64,000 nucleotides of DNA, taken from the NCBI GenBank assembly GCA_013360285.1, contig JABWCM010000006.1, positions 11,553 through 75,552 on the forward strand, in the 5' to 3' direction. The DNA is from Myxococcales bacterium. GTDB taxonomy: Bacteria > Myxococcota_A > UBA9042 > JABWCM01. Each line of letters starts with the position of its first letter. Positions within the stretch are counted from its first letter, which is position 1. Below, piece after piece: positions 8,017 through 11,775 of the stretch. Below the pieces are notes generated by a model that was not told the origin of the DNA, ran no database searches, and was given only the letters and a program-made list of their open reading frames with translations. Position numbers and translations under genes: made by a program.

Positions 8017-9900
8017 ATGAACGCAAATCTGAATGGTCCCAGCAACGAAGTATTGAGATGGAGGTTGCCCTATCCCTTTGCATTGGCCGCCGAACGGATT
8101 GTGCTCGCCACCGATCCCGCAGACCAAGTTCACCAGATTTTTATCAGTACCGAAATCGTTCTGCGTTCAGCGGTTGCCCTGGCCGCGGCAGATGTATGTG
8201 CGTCCGAATCATTCGACGAGTTGGCAAGCCGCATCGGAATCACGCAGCGCTCTTCTTTACGCAAACCATCCATGGGGCACTGGCAGAAAACGCTGGATAG
8301 TCTGACCAAACCCAACACTGCATTCTTCTTCAATTCGTCAAACTCACCCTGGATACCCGAATTACGCCCATGGTACCAAAACTCCTGCAATACCCTGCAA
8401 CGGCTTATCGAACTACGAAACAAACACAATCACGAAGGCCGGGCGCCGGGGCTCGACGGCTCCCACCATAGGCTTGCTTTTGAGTTGTTCTCCCAGTTGA
8501 TGAACTCTTTGTCCTGGTTGGCGCGATATCGTTTGCTCGAAGTGATCGCCGCCCGGCCGATTCGAGAAGGTCAGTTCGCGGGCACCGTTCGGGTTTTATC
8601 TGGAAGTCGGTCCGTAACCACGCCACGCCGTGCACAATGGTCGCAAGGTTGGCTGGCGGAACGGACGTTGTATCTCGTAGCCCAGGACGCAAAATCCGTG
8701 TTGTGTGTCAAACCCTGGATGGACGTCGTCTCGGACAGTGGCCCGGAGCGGCGGTTTCTGCTGGTCAATTCAATTGATTTTTCGCAAAAAAACATAAGCC
8801 TATTGTCGGTCGGTCTTGACGAACAAACAAACAAAAAGACGGTACCCGCGGTCGCCGATGGGTCCAGTCCGACCAGACAGCCAATTCAATTTTTTCAAGG
8901 TCTTGACGCGGTTCCGGGATTGGACGACCGCTTCGAAATTCGCGGTGAACTTGGGCAGGGAGGAATGGCCACGGTTTTTTTGGCCTATGATCGCATTTTG
9001 GACGAACAATTGGCCGTCAAGGTGCTCCATTCCGAGTTGGCACGTGACCCGCTGGTTTCGGAACGTTTTGTCAGAGAAGCCAAAGTAATGCGCAAGTTGG
9101 CAGAAAATCAGTGCCCTGGCATCGTTCCGATTCGGGACGTGTTGATTCTGGCGGACGGTCGCGTCGCCTATACCATGCCGCATTATTGCCGAGGTAGCCT
9201 AGAGGGTGCCCCCAAACCGCTGCCGGCCGAGATCGTTGCGAACTGGGCGATGGAAATCGCTCAAGCGCTGGTTTCCGTTCATGGAAACAATATCGTGCAT
9301 CGGGACATCAAGCCGTCCAACATTTTTATGGACGACATGATCCGACCCAAAATCGGCGATTTTGGCGTTGCACACACTACATTCGATCCGCATTTGACCG
9401 GAACGTTTGGATTCATCGGAACCGAAGGGTACATGGCGCCGGAACTGACCGTCGGTGGCTCTGTATCGACAAAAGCAGATATATATAGCCTCGGAGTTGT
9501 GATCGATGAACTTCTCACCGGAGAAATCCGCCCACATAAGGCGGGTGTAGGCATCACAAACGACTTGGGAACGGTGATTCGCTGGATGGTCAACCGTGAT
9601 CCCGACAGACGTCCCACAGCAGCCGAAGTTGTGGCAGCGCTGCGCAACGCAAAAAAAACATTGGAAAAACCCTATAATCAAATCACCGTGGAACAAGAAC
9701 TTGAGGACGCGGACAGGAGAAAACGAGCACAAGAGCAGGCCCGGTTTGACGCTCAGACTCCCAATAAGCCGCTCCCCATCCCGGATGCAGGATTGGAAAC
9801 CGACACGTCAAAGAAGGAGAAAGACACGTGGAGCGAAGTCCTTGCTGTAGTGATGATACTGGTTGTTTATCTGATTTATCGACTGTTGAAGGCGACGTAA
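8017..9900 (+). CDS. Ser/Thr protein kinase with roughly 300-aa N-terminal domain of unknown function and C-terminal transmembrane anchor
   Basis: Hanks kinase motifs are present: GELGQGGMATVF (glycine loop), AVKVL (VAIK Lys), HRDIKPSNIF (catalytic loop), IGDFG (DFG), GTEGYMAPE (APE). C-terminal hydrophobic helix VLAVVMILVVYLIY. The track ORF starts at 7735 inside repeat B, so the start is placed at Met 8017 (MNANLNGP); an alternative start at 7882 is possible. Confidence 0.8.
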   Translation: MNANLNGPSNEVLRWRLPYPFALAAERIVLATDPADQVHQIFISTEIVLRSAVALAAADVCASESFDELASRIGITQRSSLRKPSMGHWQKTLDSLTKPNTAFFFNSSNSPWIPELRPWYQNSCNTLQRLIELRNKHNHEGRAPGLDGSHHRLAFELFSQLMNSLSWLARYRLLEVIAARPIREGQFAGTVRVLSGSRSVTTPRRAQWSQGWLAERTLYLVAQDAKSVLCVKPWMDVVSDSGPERRFLLVNSIDFSQKNISLLSVGLDEQTNKKTVPAVADGSSPTRQPIQFFQGLDAVPGLDDRFEIRGELGQGGMATVFLAYDRILDEQLAVKVLHSELARDPLVSERFVREAKVMRKLAENQCPGIVPIRDVLILADGRVAYTMPHYCRGSLEGAPKPLPAEIVANWAMEIAQALVSVHGNNIVHRDIKPSNIFMDDMIRPKIGDFGVAHTTFDPHLTGTFGFIGTEGYMAPELTVGGSVSTKADIYSLGVVIDELLTGEIRPHKAGVGITNDLGTVIRWMVNRDPDRRPTAAEVVAALRNAKKTLEKPYNQITVEQELEDADRRKRAQEQARFDAQTPNKPLPIPDAGLETDTSKKEKDTWSEVLAVVMILVVYLIYRLLKAT

Positions 9901-9968
9901 ACGGTACGCGGCATATCACGCGATTCATCCGAGTCGTTGTCGGTGGTTCGTCGTTCGGTTACCGAAAT

Positions 9969-10137
9969 CTAGCACTACTGTGTCACAAAGAGCCCGAGCA
10001 CCGGGGCCAACGACGCGCCCCGAGACCGCCTTGGCGCTCCCTATGGGGTATCGGGAATACCTCGTCGGGAGCGGCGGGGCGGTATCGGGGATGCAGCGTT
10101 GGCCGAATGCCGGGCGTTTTTGACACAGTACTGCTAG
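9969..10137. repeat. Copy C0 of the repeat family (diverged core GGGTATCGGGAATACCTCGTC; TIRs CTAGCACTACTGTGTCA / TGACACAGTACTGCTAG)
   Basis: TIRs at 9969-9985 and 10121-10137 match 16 of 17. Shares the CTAG junction with copy C, forming a tandem doublet. Confidence 0.55.
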
Positions 10138-10282
10138 GTGTGCGGTTTTTTTAAATGAATTCCACGCCCGGGCTGTCTTTGACCGTCTCGCCCGCAAAAA
10201 TCCCTGCGCCATATTCCCGATATGACTCAGGATTTTTTGGAAGATTCGGCGAAAATCCGGCTTGCCCAAAATTCCCCTAAAA
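10134..10282. repeat. Copy C of the repeat family (core CCTGCGCCATATTCCCGATATGACTCAGG; TIRs CTAGGTGTGCGGTTTTTTT / CCTAAAAAACACTAGCCACC)
   Basis: Core at 10197-10225 in inverted orientation relative to copy B. Internal block gcgaaaatccggcttgcccaaaattcccctaaaaaac is shared with copies D and G. Lies immediately upstream of the membrane sigma-like gene. Confidence 0.7.
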
Positions 10283-10320
10283 AACACTAGCCACCATTTG
10301 TCATAAACGAGGGGTCTACC

Positions 10321-11775
10321 ATGGTTGAACAGCAGGACAATTCGGGATTCGATGAAACGCCGCCGGCACGGCGAGCATCACACCGTCTCTACCGTGCCGC
10401 CAAGTTTGGGCTTGCAGCGTTAACGTGGGGGAGTCTATTCTGGATCTGGTTATTTACGTCCATCATGATGATCCTGGGATATCCCCTGCTGTTTGAAGGT
10501 TCCCCTAAAGGACCACCCAGCCTCGACCCACTCGAAGTCATCTTCGGATTGTGCTTGGCGATTACACTTTTGTTGATCACCATCGGCAGACGGCTAAGCA
10601 TGATTGTCACATGGTTGAGCAACCGTAAGGACCAACATAACACCGGGTCCGATACGGCGCCGGCTATTGCCGCCGATTCGCTCAGTCCGCCACCCACCCG
10701 ATCACCGAAGTGGGTACGCCTTATCACACCCGGCGTGTTGTTCCTGGTTTGGGGCGTTCTGTTGTTCATCCACGAAGCGATGAACAACAATTCACTCGAC
10801 GCGGTCACGTTTGGACTCGCTTGGTATTTCATCGCCTACGTTCCTTATTGGTGGCTTTTTCGTGTTCCGTTCACGTGGGCAAGATGGAACAGCCGTGTCC
10901 TAAGCCGCGCAAAAACCACCCCGTGGTTTGCTGTGGTCATCGCTTTTGTCGCCTGGCCGGCAGCGGTCGGTTCCGCTTATTTAACCTTTGCTCCCGATGA
11001 AGAATGGGAACAATCCGACGGGCCACAGCAAATTGACGAACTGATAACCCGCGGCGCATCAAAATGGGCCATACTTCTCAATAAAGTAAAAGACTCCCCA
11101 ACAACAACGCGGGTTGCGACTGAATTTCTCGACTCCGTGCGGCAATCGCAATCATCCAGCAACACACGTGACTCGCGTATCGCCGGTGCGATTTCTGGCC
11201 GCGTGCCTCCACGATTCGCCGACCCTTCCGGCTTTCAAAATTGCACCGGTGGTATCGGTGTTGCCGCCTGTATGGAATGCCTGGATACCAACGAACAAAA
11301 ACGAATCCTGAAGAAACAGGGTTACCGTATACCGGACGACGAGTTGTTGGGGCTCATTGTCGACGCCCTCATAGATGTGTGTTTACGTTATGGCGATGAT
11401 CCAAACCGATATAATCTGGCCGCAACATTGACCGCGGTCGCCAAGAACAAGGTGCTCGATTATCTCAAAACCGGGGCGAATCGATTTATGAGTTGTGAGT
11501 ATCGGGACGACCAGGCCCTGGAATGGTGCTGGAGTGCCGATTACCCAACCGACTACGTAAGATTCCAAAACGAAAAGCGACTATTTCACCGTTTGCTATG
11601 CGAGTTGGATGACCGAGAAAAGGAGATCTTGTTTCTTCGCGTTGCCCATGACTGGGACTACCAAGACATCGCCAATCGGTTTGGAATCTCGTCTGACCAA
11701 GCCAAAAACATCACCAACAATACAATTAAAAAGCTCAGACATTTGGCAGACTCCAGGAAATGCAACCGCTTATAG
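10321..11775 (+). CDS. Polytopic membrane protein with C-terminal ECF-type sigma-70 regions 2 and 4 (membrane-anchored sigma-factor-like protein)
   Basis: 484 aa. Five to six hydrophobic helices in residues 25-230. The C-terminal 170 aa carry a sigma region-2-like segment LLGLIVDALIDVCLRYGDD...VAKNKVLDYLK and a region-4 HTH DDREKEILFLRVAHDWDYQDIANRFGISSDQAKNITNNTIKKLRHL. Confidence 0.7.
   Translation: MVEQQDNSGFDETPPARRASHRLYRAAKFGLAALTWGSLFWIWLFTSIMMILGYPLLFEGSPKGPPSLDPLEVIFGLCLAITLLLITIGRRLSMIVTWLSNRKDQHNTGSDTAPAIAADSLSPPPTRSPKWVRLITPGVLFLVWGVLLFIHEAMNNNSLDAVTFGLAWYFIAYVPYWWLFRVPFTWARWNSRVLSRAKTTPWFAVVIAFVAWPAAVGSAYLTFAPDEEWEQSDGPQQIDELITRGASKWAILLNKVKDSPTTTRVATEFLDSVRQSQSSSNTRDSRIAGAISGRVPPRFADPSGFQNCTGGIGVAACMECLDTNEQKRILKKQGYRIPDDELLGLIVDALIDVCLRYGDDPNRYNLAATLTAVAKNKVLDYLKTGANRFMSCEYRDDQALEWCWSADYPTDYVRFQNEKRLFHRLLCELDDREKEILFLRVAHDWDYQDIANRFGISSDQAKNITNNTIKKLRHLADSRKCNRL

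What the first reader, a model, noticed from the sequence alone, without database searches (positions are those of the whole stretch)
8017..11775. Membrane Ser/Thr kinase next to a polytopic membrane protein ending in ECF-sigma regions 2 and 4
The 10321-11775 product has five to six N-terminal transmembrane helices. It then carries the two DNA/core-binding modules of an ECF sigma factor: a region-2-like helix and a textbook region-4 HTH (EKEILFLRVAHDWDYQDIANRFGISSDQAKNITNNTIKKLR). A sigma factor covalently tethered to the membrane through an N-terminal polytopic domain is unusual, since anti-sigma factors are normally the membrane partner. The immediately upstream gene is a C-terminally anchored Ser/Thr kinase with a 300-aa unknown N-domain, which recalls ECF sigma factors controlled by Ser/Thr-kinase phosphorylation. 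Both genes are preceded by copies of the MITE-like repeat.
Basis: partly seen in the sequence, partly recalled or inferred. Interest (0 to 1): 0.6.

Follow-up and report, generated by a model that had tools for sequence, protein, structure and literature searches.

The report
Exported six-cysteine sigma-factor-like membrane protein
The gene encodes a membrane protein that ends in a real but diverged sigma-factor-type domain, yet that domain belongs to a rare, undescribed family with six paired cysteines placed behind export signals, so it probably sits outside the cytoplasm and does not work as a kinase-controlled sigma factor.

Summary
Gene 8017-9900 encodes an active-looking Ser/Thr kinase with an unknown 300-aa N-domain and a C-terminal membrane anchor. 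Gene 10321-11775 encodes a 5-TM protein ending in an ECF-sigma-type domain. A repeat copy lies upstream of each gene.

The functional reading is not supported.
- Positive-inside analysis puts the sigma-like domain outside the cytoplasm (16 versus 2 K/R).
- In 1.84 billion representative proteins the whole protein has one relative. Its C-terminal domain defines a small family of about 45 proteins.
- The family has six near-invariant cysteines that are lost in pairs, as disulfides would be.
- Members carry canonical lipoprotein signal peptides, cleavable-looking signal peptides, or polytopic N-domains whose consensus topology is also C-terminus out.
- No homologue has a kinase as its immediate neighbour. 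In the window a 170-nt hairpin plus T-run separates the two genes.

Family members recur in defence islands. In the window the gene sits next to a Mokosh-like helicase/PLD/RtcR cluster.

Best reading: a sigma-derived helix-turn-helix module displayed in the periplasm and locked by disulfides, not an RNA polymerase subunit. Its exact role is inferred only. A conserved GreA-like neighbour in one subfamily keeps a cytoplasmic, polymerase-related rival alive.

The parts
7722..7895 (+). MITE-like repeat copy (core 7785-7813) upstream of the kinase gene. It contains the spurious upstream ATG at 7735.
   Evidence: Four copies in the window, none expected by chance. The alignment shows terminal inverted GAGTTTGTGAAAAA / TTTTTCACAAACTC ends.
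8017..9900 (+). Tail-anchored Ser/Thr kinase. Unknown N-domain aa 1-306 (8017-8934), kinase domain aa 307-~576 (8935-9744), TM anchor aa 608-626 (9838-9894).
   Evidence: Pkinase E 2e-36. HRD, DFG and APE present. One C-terminal hydrophobic segment. N-domain without Pfam or PDB match. The kinase domain also hits PADLOC mad6, PD-T4-6 and the kinase part of MkoA.
9969..10155 (+). Long hairpin (arms 9969-9989 and 10117-10137) followed by a T-run. It is a likely transcription stop or repeat element between the two genes.
   Evidence: Inverted repeat I3. Intergenic fold z = -8.2. Terminator-like site at 10130-10146 plus TTTTTTT.
10178..10235 (-). MITE-like repeat copy (core 10203-10231), 90 bp upstream of the sigma-like gene.
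10321..11775 (+). Gene for the 484-aa polytopic membrane protein with a C-terminal six-cysteine ECF-sigma-like domain (NCBI NUN12256.1, from a MAG labelled Myxococcales).
10420..10986 (+). Five-helix membrane domain (aa 34-222). K/R-rich loops L2 (aa 90-131, 6 K/R) and L4 (aa 181-202, 5 K/R) are predicted cytoplasmic. L1 and L3 carry 1 and 0 K/R.
   Evidence: The motif E..NN.LD + TM + R......RW-x6-RA is shared with the wider polytopic family.
10987..11217 (+). Acidic juxtamembrane and linker region (aa 223-299). The first 25 aa carry 7 D/E and 1 K/R.
   Evidence: Conserved with the only full-length homologue.
11218..11772 (+). Six-cysteine ECF-sigma-like domain (aa 300-484) with sigma2-like helices and a sigma4 HTH (aa 426-474 = 11596-11742). 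The family-invariant cysteines are C317, C354, C392, C403, C427 and C481. C308 and C320 are extra cysteines of this subfamily.

Best explanation
Gene 10321-11775 encodes an inner-membrane protein. Five TM helices anchor it with the N-terminus inside. Its C-terminal ~260 aa are placed outside the cytoplasm, and they include a diverged ECF-sigma-type sigma2+sigma4 domain.

The domain belongs to a rare, undescribed family defined by six near-invariant cysteines. These most likely form three disulfides: C317-C354, C392-C427 and C403-C481. Two of them would staple the sigma2-sigma4 linker onto sigma4. That would hold the domain in a closed shape that cannot stretch over RNA polymerase.

So the domain most likely acts as an extracytoplasmic binding module, for a protein, a peptide or nucleic acid, and not as a transcription initiation factor.

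Family members recur in defence islands. My preferred mechanism is therefore an envelope-level sensing or exclusion function against invading DNA or phage injection machinery, analogous to HTH-bearing superinfection-exclusion lipoproteins.

The neighbouring kinase is an independent gene. It is possibly part of the adjacent Mokosh-like helicase/PLD cluster, and it is not a regulator of this protein.

Shown: sigma homology, five TM helices, the six-Cys family and its architectures, and the lack of a conserved kinase neighbour. Inferred: topology, disulfides, loss of sigma function, and the defence role.
For: **Topology**
- The N-tail, L2 and L4 carry 5, 6 and 5 K/R. L1, L3 and the first 25 aa after TM5 carry 1, 0 and 1, and that post-TM5 stretch has 7 D/E.
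- TM3 and TM4 form a tight hairpin (AF2 helices 131-155 and 161-180). Whether both insert or neither does, the C-terminus stays outside.
- The consensus of 19 polytopic relatives shows two K/R-rich loops separated by two TM segments, then one last TM before the domain.

**Family**
- An exhaustive HMMER search found only one full-length relative but about 45 proteins sharing the C-terminal domain.
- Six cysteines are invariant or nearly so.
- P0043 and P0045 lack C392 and C427 together. P0020 lacks C403 and C481 together.
- Six members have PROSITE-type lipoboxes with 11-14-residue h-regions. Others have AxA|GP signal-peptide-like ends.

**Fold**
- The AF2 model (pLDDT 84.9) is closer to compact sigmas bound to an anti-sigma or another regulator (rmsd 9-15 A) than to polymerase-bound sigmas (rmsd ~22 A).
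- In the family alignment the region-2.2 position is mostly R (V in this protein), not the Q I recall as the sigma hallmark, and the region-2.3 position is not the W I recall there (the canonical Q and W rest on my own knowledge).

**Context**
- No kinase is an immediate neighbour of any homologue.
- A hairpin plus T-run lies between the kinase and this gene.
- Defence genes lie near members:
  - a MkoA/MkoB-like helicase and PLD plus an RtcR-like regulator in the window;
  - DISARM DrmC and PDC-M51B in L008;
  - TerB, BrxC_BrxD (PF10923) and helicase genes in L018;
  - a HerA-like gene in L016.
- The sigma-like proteins diverge faster (42% identity) than the adjacent GreA-like proteins (78%).
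Against: - All localisation evidence is predictive. No dedicated topology or signal-peptide predictor was available.
- My crude single-sequence topology scan of the other polytopic members was noisy: 17 C-out versus 8 C-in on one scale, 11 versus 14 on another.
- In one subfamily the sigma-like gene is conserved directly upstream of a GreA/GreB-like gene, which encodes an RNA-polymerase-binding factor. That hints at a cytoplasmic, polymerase-related role.
- In that same subfamily the hydrophobic N-segment has positive charges on both sides, so its orientation is ambiguous.
- The sigma4 HTH keeps its basic recognition helix and scores above Pfam's threshold.
- A cytoplasmic ECF sigma with a regulatory disulfide is known (SigK, cited in PMC7826278).
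- The defence-island association rests on few loci.
Confidence: 0.55

Rival explanations
1. First reader's model. The protein is a genuine ECF sigma factor held at the cytoplasmic face of the membrane by its N-terminal polytopic domain. It would be activated by release (proteolysis), by redox chemistry at its cysteines, or by phosphorylation from the upstream kinase. It would then switch on the genes downstream, here the helicase/PLD defence cluster.
For: - Real sigma2/sigma4 homology: TIGR02937 above cutoff, Sigma70_r4 above cutoff, family profile versus SigL E 4.4e-10.
- In every locus seen with downstream sequence, the family member is followed by co-directional genes at ~35-130 bp.
- A GreA-like polymerase factor is conserved next to one subfamily.
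- ECF sigmas with membrane-spanning extensions exist: ECF36 N-terminal TM helices and ECF263 (PMC8999054, PMC7826278).
- SigK has a redox disulfide (PMC7826278).
Against: - Positive-inside topology gives C-out whether three or five TM helices insert.
- Six paralogues have true lipoprotein signal peptides whose h-regions are too short to span a membrane.
- The six dispersed cysteines are lost in pairs.
- The region-2.2 and 2.3 positions do not carry the Q and W I recall as sigma hallmarks.
- No homologue has a kinase as its immediate neighbour. One locus has a TPR kinase about 4 kb upstream, across intervening genes on both strands.
- A hairpin plus T-run separates the kinase from this gene.
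- The acidic DDE in region 2 is retained. From my own knowledge, phospho-regulated ECFs replace this acidic patch, so no phospho-mimic seems needed.
Confidence: 0.25
2. The sigma-like membrane protein is a component of the neighbouring defence system, which comprises the membrane kinase, an MkoA-like helicase, a PLD nuclease and an RtcR-like regulator. It would act as the system's envelope sensor, and the tail-anchored kinase would relay the signal inside the cell.
For: - The kinase matches the STK part and the helicase matches the helicase part of one fused PADLOC MkoA model, PDLC03920.
- The PLD matches MkoB and DrmC, and an RtcR-like gene overlaps the PLD gene.
- All are on the same strand.
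- Other family members also sit beside defence genes.
Against: - The intergenic gaps of 420 and 650 bp contain repeats, a strong hairpin and a separate small ORF.
- PADLOC has no model that matches the sigma-like protein.
- The only full-length homologue sits next to a peptidase_M74/HEAT gene, with no kinase upstream. Its downstream side is cut by the contig end.
- Other members pair with quite different modules, either GreA/Tmk/radical SAM or GRDP-like/TauD.
Confidence: 0.12
3. The gene is a decaying or chance fusion without function. A sigma gene was captured behind a membrane-protein gene in a repeat-rich variable region.
For: - The region is rich in MITE-like repeats.
- The protein is extremely rare, with two full-length members in 1.84 billion representatives.
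Against: - The ORF is intact.
- The 41%-identical homologue conserves all TM helices, the loops, the linker helix and all eight cysteines.
- The same domain-after-membrane-anchor logic recurs in about 45 diverged proteins.
Confidence: 0.05

Closest known systems
Canonical ECF (group 4) sigma-70 factors, e.g. M. tuberculosis SigL (6dv9), SigE and SigH, E. coli RpoE
   Same: Homologous sigma2 + linker + sigma4 layout. The family profile aligns over both domains (E 4.4e-10). The AF2 model's best PDB and viral fold matches are ECF sigmas. The sigma4 HTH scores above the Pfam threshold.
   Different: The domain sits behind a 5-TM domain or, in relatives, behind export signals. It is predicted to be extracytoplasmic. 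It has six conserved cysteines, whereas the clearly canonical sigmas among the weak search hits have few or none. Pfam Sigma70_r2 fails for this protein and matches only 6 of 36 relatives weakly. The positions where I recall Q (region 2.2) and W (region 2.3) carry other residues.
ECF sigma factors with fused membrane-spanning extensions: ECF36 members with N-terminal 3-4 TM + DUF2275, ECF263 with a C-terminal 5 or 7 TM extension, and ECF52/IutY sigma-anti-sigma fusions
   Same: A sigma-type domain covalently joined to transmembrane helices. An N-terminal TM extension has a bioinformatic precedent (PMC8999054, PMC7826278).
   Different: In those groups the sigma domain is taken to be cytoplasmic and released by proteolysis. 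Here the topology is the opposite. No DUF2275 or anti-sigma domain is detected. The cysteine pattern and the lipoprotein paralogues have no counterpart in those groups.
Ser/Thr-kinase-associated ECF sigma factors (ECF43-type; ECF267 has a conserved kinase neighbour, PMC7826278)
   Same: A Ser/Thr kinase gene lies next to a sigma-type gene.
   Different: The adjacency is not conserved in any relative. The two genes are separated by a terminator-like hairpin. The predicted topology puts the kinase domain and the sigma-like domain on opposite sides of the membrane.
Ltp-type superinfection-exclusion lipoproteins (phage TP-J34)
   Same: A functional analogy only. Ltp is a surface-exposed lipoprotein whose repeat domains block phage genome entry by binding the tape measure protein (PMC3952083). 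That these repeats are HTH folds rests on my own knowledge of Bebeacua et al. 2013. It is a precedent for a DNA-binding-type fold working outside the cytoplasm.
   Different: There is no sequence relationship, and the HTH class is different. Ltp is phage-encoded in Gram-positive bacteria. None of the family members was found in viral contigs.
M. tuberculosis SigK (ECF19) with a redox-sensing disulfide
   Same: An ECF sigma with conserved cysteines able to form a disulfide (PMC7826278).
   Different: SigK has one pair, is cytoplasmic, and has an anti-sigma partner. Here there are three putative pairs together with export signals.

Membership tests
Sigma-70 family, ECF subfamily (functional sigma factor) | Region 4 (sigma4 HTH) detectable by curated profiles | tested here: met
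   Sigma70_r4 32.8 bits (cutoff 24.1) and Sigma70_r4_2 30.2 bits (cutoff 25.7). TIGR02937 48.2 bits (cutoff 42.9).
Sigma-70 family, ECF subfamily (functional sigma factor) | Region 2 (sigma2) detectable by curated profiles | tested here: inconclusive
   No Pfam Sigma70_r2 hit for this protein, and only 6 of 36 relatives hit it weakly. However, the family profile aligns to SigL sigma2 and the AF2 fold matches ECF sigmas. The positions where I recall Q (region 2.2) and W (region 2.3) carry other residues.
Sigma-70 family, ECF subfamily (functional sigma factor) | Located in the cytoplasm and able to bind RNA polymerase core | tested here: not met
   This is a prediction only. Positive-inside topology gives C-out. 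Supporting points are the lipoprotein and signal-peptide paralogues, the paired cysteines and the compact model. Polymerase binding itself cannot be tested with these tools.
Ser/Thr-kinase-regulated ECF sigma factors | Conserved genomic pairing of the sigma gene with a Ser/Thr kinase gene | tested here: not met
   No kinase is an immediate neighbour of the gene in the homologue loci examined. One locus has a TPR kinase about 4 kb away, across genes on both strands.
Ser/Thr-kinase-regulated ECF sigma factors | Phospho-acceptor replacing the acidic patch in region 2.2 | tested here: not met
   The acidic DDE (aa 339-341) is retained and conserved. That phospho-regulated ECFs replace this patch rests on my own knowledge.
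ECF36-type sigma with N-terminal TM extension | N-terminal 3-4 TM helices plus a DUF2275 domain (PMC8999054) | tested here: not met
   Five TM helices are present, but there is no DUF2275 or other Pfam domain in aa 1-300.
Hanks-type Ser/Thr protein kinase (gene 8017-9900) | Pkinase domain with catalytic Lys, HRD, DFG and APE | tested here: met
   Pkinase E 2e-36. HRDIKPSN, DFG, APE and AVK are present.
Mokosh type I defence system (neighbouring genes 12428-18111) | MkoA-type helicase together with an MkoB-type PLD nuclease | tested here: inconclusive
   Helicase versus MkoA E 4.6e-76. PLD versus MkoB E 6e-18, but DrmC scores slightly better at E 4e-22.
Bacterial lipoproteins (short paralogues of the domain family) | N-terminal basic n-region, short h-region and a lipobox ending in Cys (PROSITE PS51257 pattern) | tested here: met
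   P0003, P0004, P0009, P0017, P0024 and P0030 match the pattern with the Cys at positions 15-21.

The most novel reading that the evidence does not exclude
A sigma-factor fold has been moved out of the cytoplasm. This small family of ECF-sigma-derived domains would be exported as lipoproteins, secreted proteins or the outer part of polytopic membrane proteins. Three disulfides would lock them closed. They would serve at the cell envelope as sensors or blockers of invading DNA or phage machinery, sometimes as tandem soluble and membrane paralogues feeding cytoplasmic defence modules.
Probability: 0.45. Interest if true: 0.8.

Novelty: new variant of a known kind. Interest (0 to 1): 0.62.

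Why it matters
Sigma factors are textbook cytoplasmic RNA polymerase subunits. An exported, disulfide-stapled sigma2/sigma4 domain would be a clear case of a core transcription fold taken over for work at the envelope.

It would also show that "sigma-70 family" annotations can be wrong in kind, as with this protein in NCBI and its relatives in JGI/IMG.

The family's recurrent placement in defence islands, and its conserved pairing with a GreA-like/nucleotide-kinase/radical-SAM cluster in one branch, gives concrete and testable hypotheses about envelope-level sensing of invaders.

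If the domain instead proves to be cytoplasmic, it would be an unusual sigma factor, membrane-tethered at its N-terminus and rich in cysteines, placed upstream of defence genes. That would also be worth knowing.

Tried and rejected
- **Word-indexed protein searches.** With the protein, the domain alignment and the polytopic alignment, these found only 2, 9 and 4 hits. The exhaustive profile search was what revealed the family.
- **Collection scans.** Two scans of GTDB species genomes, one of JGI metagenome contigs and two of viral contigs confirmed no relative. The taxonomic range therefore remains unknown beyond the NCBI label 'MAG: Myxococcales bacterium'. Two further attempts failed for lack of conserved stretches.
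- **Full-length AF2.** With two sequences the model was poor (pLDDT 46). I used only its helix boundaries.
- **N-domain homology.** Profile-profile comparison of the window's membrane domain with that of the other polytopic members was not significant (E 0.057). Only a shared loop motif with identical spacing supports homology.
- **Home-made topology scan.** A TOPPRED-like single-sequence scan missed helices and gave conflicting counts. I rely instead on the hand-checked window protein and the alignment consensus.
- **Rfam.** Nothing above threshold in 7000-12500.
- **PADLOC.** No model matches the sigma-like proteins.
- **Literature.** Searches found no description of an exported sigma-like family.

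Full report
**1. What is there**

The window has about 53% G+C. On the + strand lie two genes.

- **Kinase gene, 8017-9900.**
  - The longer ORF from 7735 starts inside a repeat copy, so 8017 is the likely start.
  - The 627-aa product has a Pkinase domain at aa 307-504 (E 2e-36).
  - HRD, DFG and APE motifs and the AVK lysine are present.
  - A single hydrophobic segment lies at aa 608-626, at the very C-terminus.
  - The N-terminal 300 aa have no Pfam or PDB-sequence match.
- **Sigma-like gene, 10321-11775.**
  - The 484-aa product has five hydrophobic helices at about aa 34-57, 71-89, 132-152, 162-180 and 203-222.
  - An acidic juxtamembrane stretch follows them.
  - The C-terminus matches Sigma70_r4 (aa 426-474, E 4.8e-8) and Sigma70_r4_2, both above Pfam's thresholds.
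  - It also passes the cutoff of NCBIfam TIGR02937 sigma70-ECF (48.2 versus 42.9 bits) over aa 360-474.
- **Repeats.** Copies of a MITE-like repeat lie upstream of both genes, in opposite orientation. There are four copies in the window and none expected by chance.

**2. Is region 2 really there?**

This protein has no Pfam Sigma70_r2 match. Three results nevertheless show a diverged sigma2.

- A profile built from 36 domain relatives aligns to M. tuberculosis SigL over profile positions 25-171, which covers sigma2 and sigma4 (E 4.4e-10). It also aligns to SigE, R. sphaeroides RpoE, CnrH, SigW and SigH.
- AF2 on that alignment gave a confident model of aa 300-484 (pLDDT 84.9).
- The model's best PDB and viral fold matches are ECF sigmas.

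The domain is therefore a true ECF-sigma homologue. From my own knowledge, sigma region 2.2 normally carries a conserved Q and region 2.3 a conserved W. The family has other residues at those positions (mostly R at the first, V in this protein).

**3. Topology**

- The N-tail, L2 and L4 carry 5, 6 and 5 K/R.
- L1 and L3 carry 1 and 0. The first 25 aa after TM5 carry 1 K/R and 7 D/E.
- With five TM helices this gives N-in and C-out, 16 versus 2 positive charges.
- TM4 is aromatic and only marginally hydrophobic on the Kyte-Doolittle scale. It is clearly hydrophobic in the homologue.
- TM3 and TM4 form a tight hairpin in the AF2 secondary structure (helices 131-155 and 161-180). If neither inserted, three TM helices would remain and the C-terminus would still be outside.
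- Only insertion of exactly one of the two helices would put the domain inside.

No dedicated predictor was available, so this remains a prediction.

**4. The family**

The word-indexed search found only the protein itself (NCBI NUN12256.1, 'MAG: Myxococcales bacterium', annotated as a sigma-70 family sigma factor) and one homologue at 41% identity. That homologue's true ORF extends upstream to include TM1.

An exhaustive HMMER profile search of 1.84 billion representatives again found only these two full-length members. It also found about 45 proteins that match the C-terminal domain alone (E 1e-12 to 1e-4).

Six cysteines are invariant or nearly so across these proteins. In the window protein they are C317, C354, C392, C403, C427 and C481. 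The clearly canonical ECF sigmas among the weak search hits have few or no cysteines.

The architectures fall into three kinds.
- Polytopic N-domain, then a Pro/Ala-rich linker, then the domain (400-600 aa).
- Short proteins with a basic n-region, an 11-14-residue h-region and a lipobox cysteine. These are P0003, P0004, P0009, P0017, P0024 and P0030, and all match the PROSITE PS51257 pattern.
- Proteins of about 260 aa with one N-terminal hydrophobic segment, mostly followed by an AxA|GP motif.

The exceptions to cysteine conservation are informative.
- P0043 and P0045 lack C392 and C427 together.
- P0020 lacks C403 and C481 together.

Loss in pairs is what independent disulfides would show. 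It implies the pairs C392-C427 and C403-C481 and, by elimination, C317-C354.

C392 and C403 lie in the sigma2-sigma4 linker. C427 and C481 lie at the two ends of sigma4 (helix map). Such bonds would pin the linker to sigma4. In a holoenzyme that linker must stretch between two well-separated sigma domains (my own knowledge), so the oxidised domain could not adopt that form.

In line with this, the model superposes better on compact sigmas bound to an anti-sigma or another regulator (rmsd 9-15 A for 6dxo, 7lq4, 9wsf and 5uxx) than on polymerase-bound sigmas (rmsd ~22 A).

An alignment-based consensus of 19 polytopic members shows two K/R-rich loops separated by two TM segments, then one final TM before the domain. 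This again gives C-out.

The window protein shares the local motif E..NN.LD + TM + R......RW-x6-RA with these members. Formal profile-profile homology of the membrane domains is not significant.

**5. Is the kinase a partner?**

- The only full-length homologue has a peptidase_M74/HEAT gene upstream.
- The polytopic subfamily has a recurring module: a ~365-aa unknown protein, the sigma-like protein, a ~150-aa GRDP-like protein and a TauD-like protein. One locus has YidC upstream instead.
- The signal-type subfamily is followed by a GreA/GreB-like gene, a thymidylate-kinase-like gene (PADLOC PDC-M51B, E 1e-44), a radical-SAM gene and an AAA_28 gene.
- In L021 a signal-type paralogue and a 535-aa polytopic paralogue sit in tandem in front of that cluster.
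- No kinase is an immediate neighbour of any homologue. One TPR kinase lies about 4 kb away, across genes on both strands.
- In the window the 420-bp spacer holds a ~170-nt hairpin followed by a T-run, plus a repeat copy.
- Under the predicted topology the kinase domain is cytoplasmic and the sigma-like domain is not.

The pairing is therefore most likely incidental.

**6. Surroundings**

Downstream on the same strand lie four genes.
- An SF1 helicase (PADLOC MkoA, E 4.6e-76).
- An unknown 388-aa ORF.
- A PLD protein that is MkoB/DrmC-like.
- An overlapping RtcR-like CARF-AAA-HTH regulator (E 2e-132).

The upstream kinase matches the kinase part of the same fused MkoA model. The kinase may therefore belong to that Mokosh-like system.

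Other family members also lie near defence genes.
- DISARM DrmC and an MZB helicase in L008.
- TerB, BrxC_BrxD (PF10923), DEAD helicase and AAA_15 genes in L018.
- A HerA-like gene in L016.

The sigma-like proteins diverge much faster than their GreA-like neighbours: 42% versus 78% identity between L021 and L008.

**7. Interpretation**

The most coherent reading is an inner-membrane protein that displays a disulfide-locked, sigma-derived HTH module outside the cytoplasm. This would be a repurposed fold, not a sigma factor.

What it binds is unknown. Given the defence-island context, I favour an envelope-level sensing or exclusion role. The precedent is the Ltp superinfection-exclusion lipoprotein (PMC3952083). 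This last step is weakly supported.

The main rival is a cytoplasmic, membrane-tethered and possibly redox-regulated sigma that switches on the downstream genes. It is kept alive by four points.
- The conserved GreA-like neighbour.
- The co-directional downstream genes.
- The intact sigma4 HTH.
- The ambiguous charge distribution around the hydrophobic segment of the GreA-linked subfamily.

Known ECFs with TM extensions (ECF36 N-terminal, ECF263 C-terminal, IutY/ECF52; PMC8999054, PMC7826278) and the SigK disulfide (PMC7826278) are the nearest described cases. None combines export signals with six paired cysteines. Literature searches found no description of such a family.

**8. Verdict**

The architecture is right, but the kinase-regulated tethered-sigma reading is not supported.
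- This is a new variant of a known kind and probably an undescribed domain family.
- Interest is moderate to high because of the topological paradox. It is tempered by the purely predictive evidence and the rarity of the family.

Noticed in passing
window 12428-19697 (+): Mokosh-like defence cluster. It comprises an SF1 helicase (MkoA, E 4.6e-76), an unknown 388-aa ORF, a PLD nuclease (MkoB/DrmC-like) and an overlapping RtcR-like CARF-AAA-HTH sigma-54 activator (E 2e-132). The upstream kinase matches the STK part of the same fused MkoA model, so this may be a split MkoA.
   Followed up: partly
L002, L007, L008, L021, L022: A conserved cluster lies directly downstream of six-Cys sigma-like genes: a GreA/GreB-like gene, a thymidylate-kinase-like gene (PADLOC PDC-M51B, E 1e-44), a radical-SAM gene (weak pVip) and an AAA_28 gene. 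A Gre factor beside a viperin-like nucleotide module might rescue host polymerase from chain terminators. In L021/L022 a signal-type and a 535-aa polytopic sigma-like paralogue sit in tandem.
   Followed up: partly
L011, L012, L018, L023 (also L013): A recurring module surrounds the polytopic sigma-like genes: a ~365-aa protein without any family match, the sigma-like protein, a ~150-aa GRDP-like protein with a Cys/His-rich tail, and a ~195-aa TauD-like protein. In L013 YidC is the upstream gene instead.
   Followed up: partly
window 7785-7813, 10203-10231, 30762-30790, 59498-59526: A MITE-like repeat of ~150-170 nt with a 29-nt near-identical core. There are two subtypes of termini. Two copies have GAGTTTGTGAAAAA / TTTTTCACAAACTC inverted ends.
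   Followed up: partly
window 9969-10155: A ~170-nt near-perfect hairpin followed by a T-run, in the kinase/sigma-like spacer. The fold z-score is -8.2. It could be a terminator or another repeat element.
   Followed up: partly
window 11891-12361 (+): A small ORF in the 650-bp gap before the helicase, with a weak DUF4258 (toxin-like) match (E 0.007, below threshold). The real start is probably internal.
   Followed up: no
window 4480-7017 (-): An 845-aa protein with 11 hemopexin repeats (E 3e-145) flanking a reprolysin-like zinc-metalloprotease motif. This is an unusual repeat count for a bacterium.
   Followed up: no
window 20224-25735 (+): A Fur-family regulator followed by two tandem 749-aa peroxidase-family genes (21208-23457 and 23486-25735). 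They look like a duplicated catalase-peroxidase pair.
   Followed up: no
window 7612-7705: A palindromic hairpin (arms 7630-7653 and 7660-7683) that gives a sub-threshold Rfam mir-4477 match on both strands. It is almost certainly a chance match to a hairpin.
   Followed up: no
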